Notes under the pieces: model-generated
Told to the model about the DNA's origin: nothing
The model's input: only the letters and a program-made list of their open reading frames with translations
Databases searched by the model: none
Source of the DNA: a virus
Length of the DNA: 64,000 bases
Direction: 5' to 3' (one strand)
Virus record (IMG/VR): IMGVR_UViG_3300046787_000130
Location: 1-64,000 of that record
In this document: positions 10,637 through 13,632 of the stretch, piece after piece
How positions within the stretch are numbered: the first letter of the stretch is position 1
Layout of the letters: every line of letters begins with the position of its first letter
Translations under genes and position numbers: made by a program

Positions 10637-11014
10637 ATGAAAAACATTTTAATTATCTGTACTGCAATTGCTCTATTGTTTTCCGGTAGCGCATTAGCAG
10701 ACCGTCGTCACGGTGAACACCACCGTCGCGACAATCATCATGAAAGGGATAATCGCAGCCATCGTGGTGCTTGGATTGCTGGTGCTGCTGTTGTTGGCGG
10801 ATTGATTGGATACGCTATCGCAGATAGCAAGTCCCCTCAAGAACGTCGTAGCAACATTAAGGCATATTGCGAGAATCGTGTTCCTGAACGATACGCACAC
10901 AGCAAGCGTTTGACTACTCAGTGGGTCAAGGGTTGCATGCTCCGTGTTGAGGAAGAACTTGACGCGAAGGCAGAAGAAGCGTATAATGAGGGATATAGCA
11001 GTGGACATCCGTGA
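10637..11014 (+). CDS. secreted/periplasmic protein
   Basis: Signal peptide ending ALA, His/Arg-rich stretch, hydrophobic GAAVVGGLIG segment. Confidence 0.7.
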   Translation: MKNILIICTAIALLFSGSALADRRHGEHHRRDNHHERDNRSHRGAWIAGAAVVGGLIGYAIADSKSPQERRSNIKAYCENRVPERYAHSKRLTTQWVKGCMLRVEEELDAKAEEAYNEGYSSGHP

Positions 11015-11246
11015 AACTTTAAAGTCTATTCCCGTTGATAAGGCATTTCACTTTATTGGCGGTTGGGCACTTGTTGCTACATTGTATCCATACTTCCCAG
11101 TATTCTCTTTCATTGCAGTAATTGCGGTTGCTGCTTGGAAGGAATGGGATGATGGCAATGGTCACGGAACCCGAGACTTTTGGGATTTCCTAGTGACTGT
11201 TGGCGGTGGTGCTGGTGCAGCACTAGTGCATACAATTTTGAATTAA
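11001..11246 (+). CDS. small membrane protein (DKxxH...KEWD...D.WD motif)
   Basis: GTG start after GAGGGA; three hydrophobic segments. Confidence 0.7.
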   Translation: MDIRETLKSIPVDKAFHFIGGWALVATLYPYFPVFSFIAVIAVAAWKEWDDGNGHGTRDFWDFLVTVGGGAGAALVHTILN

Positions 11247-11541
11247 TGGTAGTAAACCTTTAACTAAAGGCATCTTGGACGGGGGTGCGATTCCCCCCAT
11301 CTCCACCAAACAACAGAACCCCCAACGCCTCTCATCGATGCGCACCATGGGGGTCACTTTGGGGATGACCAGTTTCGACAGGGTGAGTAATAACCTAGAG
11401 GCTACCAGTGAGGCGACTGACTTAATCAGCGCAAAAAAAGTAAATGCAAACGATAGCAATTACGAAATGAGAATCGCCGCCTAATAACGGTATGACTCTC
11501 GGGGTGTTTGGCGGTTTGACCTGGCAACAGAATCAAACCGC
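11247..11541 (+). ncRNA. ssrA: circularly permuted (two-piece) tmRNA
   Basis: Acceptor piece ending GGGGG-TGCGATT-CCCCC-CATCTCC-ACCA (to 11308), 52-nt spacer, coding piece starting GGGGATG at 11361 with G3-U70 pair, tag ORF 11446-11484 ANDSNYEMRIAA. Confidence 0.93.
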
Positions 11542-11548
11542 TACTTTT
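11511..11548 (+). terminator. terminal hairpin/terminator of tmRNA coding piece
   Basis: GCGGTTTGA...TCAAACCGC stem followed by TACTTTT. Confidence 0.65.
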
Positions 11549-11566
11549 CAACTACAGAGAGAAAGA

Positions 11567-12385: not shown

Positions 12386-13411
12386 ATGACCTCAAAATTC
12401 TACAGTAATCAAGAAATGCTAGACTACTCTGACGTGCTAATTGTACCATGCGCAGGAGATGTTTCTAGTCGCAGTGAAGTTGACTTGACAACTGGCGCAG
12501 GAGTGGTTCCAATCATTGCTGCTAACATGGATGGTGTTGGTACATTTGAAATGGCACGGGCACTTGCTAAGCATAAGATGCTAACTGCTCTTGTCAAGCA
12601 CTATAGCCTTGAGGAACTGATTGAATTCTTTAAGGAAGATGATTCCCGATTTGCTTTCTATAGCATGGGCATTAGCAATGAAGATATTGCCAAGTATCAT
12701 GATTTTATTGATGCTGTAAATGCAGAGCAAACCAATGTTCCTTTTGGCGTTTGTATTGACGTTGCTAATGGCTATACTGAAAACTTCCTAGACAAACTTG
12801 ACCAAATCGTTGATATCTGCCCCAGTATGTTCTACATGGCAGGTAATGTTGTCACCCCAGAACAAGTTTATGCTCTATCTCAAAAGGGCATCGACATCAT
12901 CAAGGTTGGTATTGGTCCTGGTTCTGTTTGCACTACTCGCAAGATGACTGGTGTAGGCTTTCCTCAGTTCTCTGCGGTTCTTGATTGTGCAAAGACTGGC
13001 ATTGGTACTTGCGCTGATGGCGGTATCACTTGCGCTGGTGATGTTGCTAAGGGATTTGGCGCTGGTGCATCATATGTTATGATTGGTGGTATGTTTGCTG
13101 GTCATGAGGAAGGATTGCCGTCTGAGCATAAAGATAAGGTTGAATACATGAGCAATGTTCCTTTCTATGGGATGGCGTCAAAAGCCGCTCAAGAATTGCA
13201 CAATGGCGGTGTTGCTGACTATCGTGCATCTGAGGGTAAGGAAGTCATTCTCAAGTACAAGGGTCCAGTTGAAAAGACTGTGCAAGAAATTCTTGGTGGT
13301 CTGCGGTCTGCTTGTACATATGTTGGCGCAAGAAATTTGTATGAATTGGCAGAGAATTCGCAGTTCATTCGCGTCAACCGTCAACTCAATAACGTATTTG
13401 GAGTTAGTTAA
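12386..13411 (+). CDS. guaC: GMP reductase
   Basis: IAANMDGVGTF, IDVANGY, KVGIGPGSVCTTR, FYGMAS, YRASEGK, LGGLRSACTYVGA. Confidence 0.95.
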   Translation: MTSKFYSNQEMLDYSDVLIVPCAGDVSSRSEVDLTTGAGVVPIIAANMDGVGTFEMARALAKHKMLTALVKHYSLEELIEFFKEDDSRFAFYSMGISNEDIAKYHDFIDAVNAEQTNVPFGVCIDVANGYTENFLDKLDQIVDICPSMFYMAGNVVTPEQVYALSQKGIDIIKVGIGPGSVCTTRKMTGVGFPQFSAVLDCAKTGIGTCADGGITCAGDVAKGFGAGASYVMIGGMFAGHEEGLPSEHKDKVEYMSNVPFYGMASKAAQELHNGGVADYRASEGKEVILKYKGPVEKTVQEILGGLRSACTYVGARNLYELAENSQFIRVNRQLNNVFGVS

Positions 13412-13632
13412 TGGCTACAGCAGATGAGAAGAACAGGTTCTCTCAAGACATTATTGAGATATCCACTACCAAGCGCATTCTATGCTTAGAAGCAATCACT
13501 AGTTATTGTGAAGATAACAACCTAGAGATTGAAGTTGCTGCTACGTTAATCAACAGCGTTCTCAAAGCAAAATTGGAGGAAGAGGCGCAGGAACTACGGT
13601 ATCTGCCAAGGTCTGCGCGATTGCCAATATGA
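13411..13632 (+). CDS. 33: late promoter transcription coactivator gp33
   Basis: EAITSYCEDNNLEIE...LKAKLEEEAQELRYL...LPI; synteny 33-59-32. Confidence 0.9.
   Translation: MATADEKNRFSQDIIEISTTKRILCLEAITSYCEDNNLEIEVAATLINSVLKAKLEEEAQELRYLPRSARLPI

What the first reader, a model, noticed from the sequence alone, without database searches (positions are those of the whole stretch)
11247..11548. Phage-encoded circularly permuted (two-piece) tmRNA
Seen: the 3' tRNA-like half comes first (CATCTTG-GAC, T-arm GGGGG-TGCGATT-CCCCC, CATCTCC-A-CCA ending 11308), then a 52-nt intervening segment with its own stem (ACCCCCA/TGGGGGT), then the 5' half GGGGATG (11361). The acceptor stem pairs fully with G3-U70; CAGGGTG pairs with CATCTTG and GCTACCA (11401) with TGGTAGT (11247). 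A-rich run then resume codon GCA (11446) gives ANDSNYEMRIAA and tandem TAA stops. Established: G3-U70 is alanine identity; permuted ssrA occurs in alphaproteobacteria and some cyano- and betaproteobacteria; C-terminal AA tags go to ClpXP; the phage tmRNAs I know of are mostly one-piece. Inference: the phage supplies its own trans-translation RNA using host SmpB (no smpB in window), perhaps to counter host RNA-cleaving defences; it also hints at the host lineage.
Basis: partly seen in the sequence, partly recalled or inferred. Interest (0 to 1): 0.88.

Follow-up and report, generated by a model that had tools for sequence, protein, structure and literature searches.

The report
Phage two-piece tmRNA carrying AbiF-antitoxin RNA
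A large T4-like phage really does encode a split ("two-piece") ribosome-rescue RNA, which is a known kind of phage gene, but the spacer that is cut out of it during maturation is a toxin-less copy of the small RNA that bacteria use to keep their AbiF suicide RNase switched off, so one gene may both rescue ribosomes and disarm a host defence.

Summary
ARAGORN and two Rfam models (RF04321 137.8 bits; RF01850 126.2 bits) call an intact circularly permuted tmRNA at 11247-11550. It has the G3:U70 pair, tag ANDSNYEMRIAA and two stop codons. The record is a 161-kb, 96%-complete T4-like virus without smpB. Phage two-piece tmRNAs are already described (Melnitz; 53 of 133 unique phage tmRNAs), so that part is a new member of a known kind.

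The 52-nt intervening segment (11309-11360) holds an abiF RNA motif (RF03085, 41.5 bits, cut-off 37). A model built from other viral abiF motifs scores it 49.4 bits. It is 82-88% identical to motifs in Burkholderiales genomes, two of which lie directly upstream of AbiF genes. The phage has no AbiF gene.

Of 50 other viral records with this motif, 49 lack AbiF. At least 15 motifs abut tRNA genes with the same 6-10 nt spacing. None of 100 other tmRNA-bearing viral loci, and no tRNA or tmRNA 3' end in the 185,579 bacterial and archaeal species representatives scanned, has the tmRNA-abiF combination.

Best reading: tRNA-type processing releases both tmRNA pieces and an AbiF antitoxin mimic. This is inferred, not shown.

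This scan had already noted toxin-less abiF RNAs in phage tRNA arrays on other DNA. The tmRNA-spacer position is new.

The parts
10959..10987 (+). Sigma-70-like promoter (TTGACG-17-TATAAT, 11 of 12), about 260 nt upstream. It is a possible start of a transcript covering the small upstream ORF and the tmRNA precursor.
   Evidence: Consensus scan only. The region holds 3 such sites against 2.4 expected in shuffles, so this is weak evidence.
11247..11308 (+). Acceptor piece of the two-piece tmRNA. It comprises the P2 strands, the T-arm GGGGG-UGCGAUU-CCCCC and the 3' acceptor strand CAUCUCC-A-CCA.
   Evidence: It aligns along its length with four other viral tmRNA genes, with compensatory changes.
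11309..11360 (+). Intervening segment of the permuted gene. It is removed when the precursor is cut into two pieces.
   Evidence: It lies between the encoded CCA and G1 of the 5' acceptor strand. In the closest relatives this slot is 4, 4, 76 and 82 nt long and unrelated in sequence.
11319..11354 (+). abiF RNA motif: P1 CCCCCA/UGGGGG, P2 CGC/GCG, loop CUCUCAUCGAU, bulge CACCA. The conserved 5' flank AACAACAGAA precedes it.
   Evidence: RF03085 scores 41.5 bits (cut-off 37), with E = 3.5e-4 for 64 kb against all families and 2e-7 per genome. My own model R1, built without the window, scores 49.4 bits and gives the only hit in 64 kb. MFE is -15.3 kcal/mol, z = -2.8. BLAST identity to abiF motifs in three Burkholderiales genomes is 82-88%; two of these (82%, 86%) are AbiF-linked and the 88% one is an orphan.
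11361..11550 (+). Coding piece of the tmRNA. It comprises the 5' acceptor strand GGGGAUG (11361-11367), the P2 return strands, the small hairpin 11408-11421, the tag reading frame and the terminal hairpin 11511-11541 followed by UACUUUUC.
   Evidence: It is 81-90% identical to the coding pieces of L168, L173, L197 and L198.
11446..11487 (+). Tag reading frame GCA...GCC (ANDSNYEMRIAA) plus tandem TAA TAA.

Best explanation
The locus is one transcription unit with two products.

(1) A genuine two-piece tmRNA. The precursor is cut after the encoded CCA (11308), and RNase P cuts before G1 (11361). The acceptor piece and the coding piece pair through the acceptor stem and the P2 helices. Host AlaRS charges the RNA through G3:U70, and host SmpB and EF-Tu deliver it to stalled ribosomes. 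The nascent chains then receive the tag ANDSNYEMRIAA.

(2) The excised 52-nt spacer is a toxin-less copy of the abiF RNA. That RNA is the antitoxin that binds and blocks the HEPN RNase AbiF, a type III toxin-antitoxin abortive-infection system. Released in quantity by the same tRNA-processing enzymes, it would keep a host AbiF toxin neutralised during infection. This would be an RNA antitoxin mimic, as pseudo-ToxI is for ToxIN.

Shown: the tmRNA anatomy, the identity of the spacer as an abiF-family motif, the absence of smpB and of abiF protein genes in the phage, and the recurrence of orphan abiF motifs in phages beside tRNA genes.

Inferred: the processing sites, the stability of the excised RNA, its binding to AbiF, and any benefit to the phage.
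For: tmRNA. ARAGORN and two Rfam covariance models score well over their cut-offs. The acceptor stem is complete with G3:U70, and the tag is in frame with two stops. Homology to four other viral tmRNA genes includes compensatory changes: acceptor pair 6 U-A to A-U, CAUCUUG/CAGGGUG against UGUUCUG/CAGGGCA, and UGGUAGU/GCUACCA against UGGUUGU/GCAACCA. An independent assembly is identical.

The spacer is an abiF motif. RF03085 scores above its gathering score. Model R1, built from 33 viral motifs with the window left out, gives 49.4 bits. That matches a bona fide AbiF-linked motif (L291, 49.7 bits). The conserved 5' flank AACAGAACCC is shared with L049, whose AbiF gene starts 41 nt downstream. 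In two Burkholderiales genomes, motifs 82-86% identical to the spacer lie immediately upstream of 317- and 320-aa Abi_2 ORFs.

The motif is an orphan. No Abi_2 gene is found in the 96%-complete genome. The neighbours are ordinary T4-like genes.

The pattern is general. At least 117 viral contigs carry the motif's loop, and 82 have both helices intact, where about 2% would do so by chance, with many compensatory pair changes. Of 50 such records, 49 lack Abi_2, including 20 of the 21 that are at least 90% complete. At least 15 of the 82 sit 5-9 nt from a tRNA gene on the same strand. In the window the hairpin is 10 nt after CCA and 6 nt before G1, so the geometry is the same.

Literature. The abiF-motif RNA neutralises AbiF in trans by direct binding (10.1101/2025.04.15.648962; PMC12737573). 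Phage RNA mimicry of a type III antitoxin is known from pseudo-ToxI (PMC3475682). A phage sk1 hairpin inhibits AbiF (PMC13064643).
Against: No experiment bears on this locus, and the host is unknown, so I could not check whether it carries AbiF. The window's combination of tmRNA and abiF motif is a singleton. It has no close relative with the same spacer, so there is no covariation or conservation evidence for this particular copy. The loop carries one substitution at a highly conserved position: CUCUCAUCGAU against the consensus CUCUCAACGAU. Other structured motifs show G or C there, but I saw no other with U. RCd22 needs two motifs for full activity in C. difficile, and here there is one. 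The spacer slot accepts unrelated inserts in relatives, so the hairpin could be a neutral passenger. Pfam Abi_2 may miss divergent AbiF-like toxins.
Confidence: 0.55

Rival explanations
1. The tmRNA is functional, but the abiF-like hairpin is a neutral passenger or merely a processing or stability hairpin. On this reading it was picked up by recombination from a tRNA-array cassette and has no effect on any host defence.
For: The spacer slot holds unrelated sequences of 4 to 82 nt in the closest relatives and 4-175 nt across about 75 phage two-piece tmRNAs, so almost anything is tolerated there. This exact combination is a singleton. The loop carries one consensus substitution.
Against: Both helices, 10 of 11 loop bases and the flanks are intact, and the score equals that of AbiF-linked motifs. 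Orphan motifs with intact, covarying helices recur in many unrelated phages, which argues for selection and not decay. A degraded version does exist elsewhere (L006, 26 bits) and shows what erosion looks like.
Confidence: 0.3
2. The motif is the cis antitoxin of a phage-borne toxin that Pfam Abi_2 does not recognise. The pair would then be the phage's own toxin-antitoxin or superinfection-exclusion module.
For: Phages and prophages can carry complete AbiF systems, as in C. difficile phiCD prophages and viral record G047. The genome is 96% complete, not 100%.
Against: No Abi_2 hit is found anywhere in the 161 kb. The genes downstream are a 69-aa membrane-like protein, a cell-wall hydrolase, a GMP reductase, gp33-like, gp59 and gp32. 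In canonical loci the toxin ORF starts within about 40-110 nt of the motif, but here a tmRNA coding piece follows.
Confidence: 0.05
3. The gene does not serve trans-translation. On this reading it is an SmpB-titrating or AlaRS-titrating decoy, or a decaying copy captured from a host.
For: A tRNA-like-domain-only tmRNA in mycobacteriophage DS6A was proposed to titrate SmpB (PMC4131195). There is no phage smpB.
Against: All parts of a working two-piece tmRNA are present and in register, with a typical ANDxxY...AA tag, double stops and a resume context that ARAGORN recognises. Helices covary with relatives. The phage is a lytic T4-like type, no integrase context was seen, and the gene is full length, so it is not an attachment-site fragment.
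Confidence: 0.05
4. The motif is a target and not a decoy. Host AbiF, which processes its own ncRNA, would cut the phage precursor at the motif. This would link tmRNA maturation or destruction to the presence of the defence.
For: AbiF is reported to cleave and process its cognate ncRNA (PMC12737573).
Against: RNase P and 3' trimming suffice for two-piece tmRNA maturation in relatives whose spacers are only 4 nt. No data support any cleavage here.
Confidence: 0.05

Closest known systems
Phage-encoded two-piece tmRNA (ssrA) of marine T4-like myophages, e.g. Methylophilales phage Melnitz and pelagimyophages (Buchholz et al. 2022, PMC9004378)
   Same: It is a circularly permuted ssrA in a 140-160 kb T4-like aquatic myovirus without smpB. 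It lies in the early/replication region near the gp33-like transcription coactivator, gp59 and gp32.
   Different: Melnitz ssrA is of alphaproteobacterial type and preceded by a glutamine riboswitch. This one matches the beta_tmRNA model best, has no riboswitch hit, and carries an abiF motif in its intervening segment.
[quoted passage not shown]
   Same: It shares the two-helix hairpin, the conserved loop, the bulge and the 5' flank. It scores above the family cut-off and is 82-86% identical to AbiF-linked copies in Burkholderiales.
   Different: There is no AbiF gene next to it or anywhere in the phage. It is a single copy, where RCd22 has two. It is embedded inside another RNA gene between two tRNA-type processing sites.
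Pseudo-ToxI of Pectobacterium phage PhiTE (Blower et al. 2012, PMC3475682) and orphan antitoxins of T4-like phages against DarTG1 (PMC11825919)
   Same: A phage carries a toxin-less look-alike of a host antitoxin. In PhiTE this is an RNA that neutralises a type III toxin and lets the phage escape abortive infection.
   Different: The toxin family differs: ToxN and DarT against AbiF. Those cases are shown at the bench, and this one is not. Those elements stand alone and are not spliced into a tmRNA gene.
Toxin-less abiF RNAs in phage tRNA arrays
   Same: It is an orphan abiF hairpin placed a few nucleotides from tRNA-type processing sites in large lytic phages.
   Different: Here the carrier is the spacer of a two-piece tmRNA, not a gap in the tRNA array. 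This phage's own 19-tRNA array has no such motif.

Membership tests
Two-piece (circularly permuted) tmRNA | Gene order is 3' tRNA-like half ending in CCA, then intervening segment, then 5' acceptor strand and coding part | tested here: met
   CCA ends at 11308 and GGGGAUG starts at 11361. ARAGORN reports 'Permuted'. RF04321 aligns over model positions 1-213 at 137.8 bits.
Two-piece (circularly permuted) tmRNA | Alanine identity: a 7-bp acceptor stem with G3:U70 and discriminator A73 | tested here: met
   GGGGAUG pairs with CAUCUCC, G3 pairs with U70, and A precedes CCA.
Two-piece (circularly permuted) tmRNA | Tag reading frame with an alanine resume codon, a hydrophobic C-terminal AA end and a stop codon | tested here: met
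   GCA at 11446, tag ANDSNYEMRIAA, then TAA TAA.
Two-piece (circularly permuted) tmRNA | Helices supported by covariation with relatives | tested here: met
   Compensatory changes in the acceptor stem and both P2 helices against L168, L173, L197 and L198. The sample is small and no formal statistic was computed.
Two-piece (circularly permuted) tmRNA | Processing into two RNAs, alanylation, SmpB-dependent tagging | not testable with these tools
   This needs Northern blot or RNA-seq, aminoacylation assays and tagging assays.
Betaproteobacterial lineage of two-piece tmRNA (RF01850) | Score above the family cut-off and best in its clan | tested here: met
   126.2 bits against a cut-off of 84. Many unrelated phage tmRNAs also match this model, so it does not identify a host.
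Betaproteobacterial lineage of two-piece tmRNA (RF01850) | A close full-length relative in betaproteobacterial (Burkholderiales) genomes | tested here: not met
   In 401 sampled Burkholderiales genomes, BLAST found only the generic T-arm and acceptor stretch (query 31-68) and the spacer motif.
abiF RNA motif (RF03085) | A 6-bp outer helix, a 3-bp inner helix, the conserved 11-nt loop CUCUCAACGAU and a 3' bulge, scoring at or above the gathering score | tested here: met
   41.5 bits against a cut-off of 37, with all 9 pairs standard and 10 of 11 loop bases matching. The independent model R1 gives 49.4 bits.
abiF RNA motif (RF03085) | Location directly upstream of an abiF (Abi_2, PF07751) gene | tested here: not met
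   No Abi_2 match is found in the 161-kb record, and a tmRNA coding piece follows the motif. It is therefore a structural and sequence member of the RNA family but not part of an AbiF toxin-antitoxin locus.
abiF RNA motif (RF03085) | Binds and neutralises AbiF | not testable with these tools
   This needs co-expression or EMSA. The complex predictor offered here takes no RNA.
Phage RNA antitoxin mimic (pseudo-ToxI type counter-defence) | A toxin-less antitoxin look-alike in a phage genome | tested here: met
   The same holds for 49 of 50 other viral records with the motif.
Phage RNA antitoxin mimic (pseudo-ToxI type counter-defence) | Confers escape from the cognate abortive-infection system | not testable with these tools
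   This needs plating on AbiF-positive and AbiF-negative hosts, and the host is unknown.

The most novel reading that the evidence does not exclude
The intervening segment of a permuted tmRNA gene is used as a cargo slot. The cell's own tRNA-processing enzymes cut out a ready-made AbiF antitoxin mimic while maturing the tmRNA. One early phage gene would then deliver two countermeasures to RNase-based abortive infection: it blocks the HEPN toxin and rescues the ribosomes stalled on whatever mRNAs still get cut. More broadly, toxin-less abiF RNAs parked at tRNA-type processing sites would be a widespread and so far unpublished class of RNA anti-defence elements in phages.
Probability: 0.4. Interest if true: 0.78.

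Novelty: new variant of a known kind. Interest (0 to 1): 0.6.

Why it matters
The tmRNA alone adds one more example to a described class. The spacer is what matters. AbiF is the type III toxin-antitoxin system proposed as the ancestor of Cas13, and in the papers I could search no natural phage counter-measure that copies its RNA antitoxin has been reported. The only related case is an unrelated sk1 hairpin. A toxin-less abiF RNA released by tRNA processing gives a directly testable anti-defence mechanism. It would explain why such motifs are common in phages that lack AbiF: 49 of 50 records here. It would also show that the dispensable loop of a permuted RNA gene can be exploited to express a second small RNA. 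Finally, it offers a rationale for phage tmRNAs, namely coping with RNase-type defences, that has so far been speculative.

Tried and rejected
- blastn of the gene against 50,697 deposited phage genomes found no match.
- The composite pattern 'tmRNA/tRNA 3' end + abiF loop' gave three results:
  - In IMG/VR it found only L006, which is tRNA-Ala plus an eroded abiF-like hairpin, and one chance hit inside coding sequence.
  - In 185,579 species-representative bacterial and archaeal genomes it gave 22 hits. None is a tRNA or tmRNA end followed by a motif.
  - In JGI metagenomes it found tRNA-Lys, tRNA-Val and tRNA-Ala followed by motifs, but no second tmRNA case.
- An Rfam scan of 19 other phage two-piece tmRNAs with long spacers found no known family inside any spacer. 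Model R1 run over 100 tmRNA-bearing viral loci (774 kb) found no abiF motif.
- Host identification failed. BLAST of the gene against 401 Burkholderiales genomes gave no full-length tmRNA relative. There is no psbA, so the phage is probably not a cyanophage. gp32 is only about 53% identical to those of cyanomyoviruses.
- I clustered the ORFs downstream of viral motifs to look for a hidden common toxin. They are diverse, and no dominant family appears.
- The idea that the hairpin is a terminator is rejected, because no U-tract follows it and the scan found no terminator.
- The idea of an attachment-site fragment left by an integrating element is rejected, because the gene is full length and sits in a T4-like lytic context.
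- I could not read Zilberzwige-Tal et al. 2025 (not in the held library), so I cannot exclude that orphan phage copies are mentioned there.

Full report
**1. The observation.**
- The T-arm is GGGGG-UGCGAUU-CCCCC.
- The 3' acceptor strand is CAUCUCC, followed by A73 and an encoded CCA that ends at 11308.
- A 52-nt spacer runs from 11309 to 11360.
- The 5' acceptor strand GGGGAUG starts at 11361. It forms seven pairs with the 3' strand, including G3:U70.
- Two further helices join the halves: CAUCUUG with CAGGGUG, and UGGUAGU with GCUACCA.
- An A-rich run leads to the resume codon GCA at 11446. The tag reads ANDSNYEMRIAA, and TAA TAA follows.

ARAGORN calls a permuted tmRNA with this tag. Rfam gives tmRNA_permuted RF04321 at 137.8 bits (cut-off 47) and beta_tmRNA RF01850 at 126.2 bits (cut-off 84). 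The gene fills the gap between the stop codon of a small ORF (11246) and the next start codon (11567). An independent Logan assembly from another read set is identical over 5,865 bp, including the gene, so this is not an assembly artefact.

**2. Context.** The window is the first 64 kb of a 161,237-bp IMG/VR virus record that CheckV rates 96% complete.
- The neighbours are T4-like genes: PhoH, a PD-(D/E)XK nuclease, a cell-wall hydrolase, a GMP-reductase-type enzyme, a gp33-like transcription coactivator, gp59 and gp32.
- gp32 is about 53% identical to those of cyanomyoviruses.
- There is no psbA.
- The record has 19 tRNA genes at 150-154 kb.
- It has no SmpB gene.

**3. How unusual is a phage two-piece tmRNA?** It is not unusual. 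Buchholz et al. 2022 (PMC9004378) described one in the OM43 myophage Melnitz. They counted 53 two-piece forms among 133 unique tmRNAs in 18,146 phage genomes, and 50 of the 53 came from aquatic phages. ARAGORN permuted and 21 standard tmRNAs in them.

The closest relatives of the window's gene are four viral contigs, L168, L173, L197 and L198, whose coding pieces are 81-90% identical. Their alignment shows compensatory changes in three places:
- in the acceptor stem, pair 6 changes from U-A to A-U;
- CAUCUUG/CAGGGUG becomes UGUUCUG/CAGGGCA;
- UGGUAGU/GCUACCA becomes UGGUUGU/GCAACCA.

The RNA is therefore under structural selection. Many of these phage genes also match the beta_tmRNA model. In 401 sampled Burkholderiales genomes, BLAST found only the generic tRNA-like domain. 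The 'beta' label therefore says little about the host.

Rfam places a third family inside the gene: abiF RNA (RF03085) at 11319-11354, at 41.5 bits against a cut-off of 37 (per-genome E = 2e-7). This is the 'own stem' of the spacer. All nine model pairs are standard, and the 11-nt loop differs from the consensus at one base.

To check this independently, I collected the motif's loop from IMG/VR. At least 117 contigs carry it, and 82 of them have both helices intact. By my estimate about 2% would do so by chance. I then built a covariance model from 33 of these without the window. On that alignment the outer helix shows 24 further pair types and 55 double-sided changes. The rows were selected for pairing, so the percentage paired is not informative, but the diversity of pair types is.

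The model finds exactly one hit in the 64-kb window. It spans 11307-11360 at 49.4 bits and covers the flanks as well. A bona fide AbiF-linked motif scores the same (L291, 49.7 bits).

BLAST of the whole tmRNA gene against Burkholderiales genomes unexpectedly matched the spacer at 82-88% identity in three genomes. In two of these the motif lies immediately upstream of a 317- or 320-aa ORF with a full Abi_2 domain. The 5' flank AACAGAACCC is shared with a viral contig whose AbiF gene starts 41 nt after the motif. The spacer is therefore homologous to the RNA component of AbiF systems.

**5. What that RNA does elsewhere.** AbiF (Pfam Abi_2) is a HEPN RNase toxin of an abortive-infection system. 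Its upstream ncRNA with the abiF motif binds it and blocks its activity. [quoted passage not shown]

**6. The motif here is an orphan, and it is one of many.** The phage has no Abi_2 gene. In place of a toxin ORF, the tmRNA coding piece follows the motif.

I searched 50 other viral records with a well-formed motif. Only one encodes Abi_2, and 20 of the 21 records that are at least 90% complete lack it.

At least 15 of the 82 motifs lie 5-9 nt from a tRNA gene on the same strand. Some follow tRNA-Met or tRNA-Thr, and others precede tRNA-Arg, tRNA-Asp or tRNA-Gln. Metagenome contigs add tRNA-Lys and tRNA-Val. One carrier, G007, is a T4-like relative of this phage, with gp32 56% identical.

In the window the hairpin starts 10 nt after the CCA and ends 6 nt before G1. 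It therefore sits between two tRNA-type processing sites, exactly as in those arrays. This scan had already noted toxin-less abiF RNAs in phage tRNA arrays on two other genomes. I reached the same pattern independently on different contigs.

The new point is the carrier.
- No other of about 75 permuted phage tmRNAs has the motif.
- None of 100 tmRNA-bearing viral loci has it.
- None of 19 long spacers holds any Rfam family.
- No tRNA or tmRNA 3' end in the 185,579 bacterial and archaeal species representatives is followed by it.

In the nearest relatives the spacer is 4, 4, 76 or 82 nt of unrelated sequence. The slot is plainly free to vary.

**7. Most likely mechanism.** Transcription may start at the TTGACG-17-TATAAT site at 10959-10987 (consensus match only) and yields one precursor. 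RNase P cuts before G1. The end after the CCA is made as for other two-piece tmRNAs; processing of the permuted precursor into two pieces is established for Caulobacter (Keiler et al. 2000, as cited).

The two pieces assemble into a working tmRNA. The excised RNA of about 52 nt folds into the abiF hairpin (-15.3 kcal/mol, z = -2.8), and the hairpin persists in the centroid fold of the whole precursor. It would then bind host AbiF as an antitoxin mimic. The precedents are pseudo-ToxI of phage PhiTE (PMC3475682), orphan antitoxins of T4-like phages against DarTG1 (PMC11825919) and the sk1 hairpin that inhibits AbiF (PMC13064643).

The pairing makes functional sense. One product blocks an RNase toxin, and the other rescues ribosomes stalled on cut mRNAs. 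That synergy is my inference.

My odds are:
- about 0.95 that the tmRNA is genuine and intact;
- about 0.9 that the spacer is a true abiF-family RNA;
- about 0.5 that it acts as an anti-AbiF decoy.

**8. Caveats.**
- The tmRNA-abiF combination is a singleton, so this copy has no conservation evidence of its own.
- The host is unknown.
- The loop has a U where the consensus has A.
- RCd22 needs two motifs, and here there is one.
- Pfam may miss divergent toxins.
- I could not read the primary AbiF structure paper, so prior mention of orphan phage copies cannot be excluded.
- A neutral-passenger reading keeps about 0.3.

**9. Verdict.** The noteworthy feature is the abiF antitoxin-type RNA in the excised spacer. 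It is a new variant of a known kind and is readily testable.

Noticed in passing
L006:682-811 (-); L265, L266, L278, L280: A group of viral and metagenome contigs has tRNA-Gly followed by tRNA-Ala(UGC). About 16 nt further on there is an abiF-like hairpin with the loop intact but the outer helix eroded (26 bits on RF03085, 42.6 bits on my model). It is possibly a decaying or divergent copy. The L006 record also has a separate two-piece tmRNA 56 kb into the contig.
   Followed up: partly
L021, L023, L025, L033, L035, L042, L043, L066, L077, L082, L090, L100, L114 (about 40 nt upstream of the motif): In a family of phages of about 41-59 kb, several with direct terminal repeats, the abiF motif is preceded by a conserved GGCCTCTCGAAGAAGCGCATTAGGGTGGATATCTGAACCC. 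Its start resembles a second, divergent abiF loop. This may be a tandem two-motif RNA like RCd22, yet no Abi_2 gene is present in the records of this family that I searched.
   Followed up: no
L014, L017, L040, L050, L055, L078, L098, L099, L113, L118, L122: Motifs lying 6-9 nt upstream of tRNA-Arg share a conserved upstream element (...GGTCCAAAC...TAAGTC...). The released RNA may therefore be longer than the Rfam hairpin.
   Followed up: no
L270:1760-1860, L273:1-110: A mini T-arm plus acceptor-like end (GTGGGGGAAACCCCACCACCTCCACCA) with no full tRNA body is followed by an abiF motif. It is possibly a minimal processing handle.
   Followed up: no
L168, L198 (4 nt); L173 (76 nt); L197 (82 nt); about 75 loci among L124-L241: Spacer length in phage two-piece tmRNAs ranges from 4 to 175 nt. 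Most long spacers form a single long hairpin, and none matched an Rfam family. The L164 spacer contains a T-arm-like GGGTTCGATTCCCACC.
   Followed up: partly
L285:1500-1554 (-) (genome G256, Burkholderiales): This bacterial abiF motif is 88% identical to the window's spacer. There is no Abi_2 gene in the genome, and the motif lies between an epimerase gene and a helicase-like ORF, so it is an orphan motif in a bacterium.
   Followed up: partly
window 13411-13632: A gp33-like late transcription coactivator (PF16805) lies about 1.9 kb downstream of the tmRNA, followed by gp59 and gp32. In phage Melnitz the two-piece ssrA sits directly upstream of the same coactivator, which hints at a conserved placement.
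   Followed up: no
L142:1828-2038 (-), L194:5575-5791 (+): manA RNA motifs (RF01745) lie near two-piece tmRNA genes in two other viral contigs.
   Followed up: no
window 11231-11236: TACAAT, a good -10 hexamer, sits 11 nt before the first base of the tmRNA gene, inside the end of the upstream ORF. The start of the Rfam beta_tmRNA model aligns to this stretch, so that model seems to include promoter sequence.
   Followed up: no
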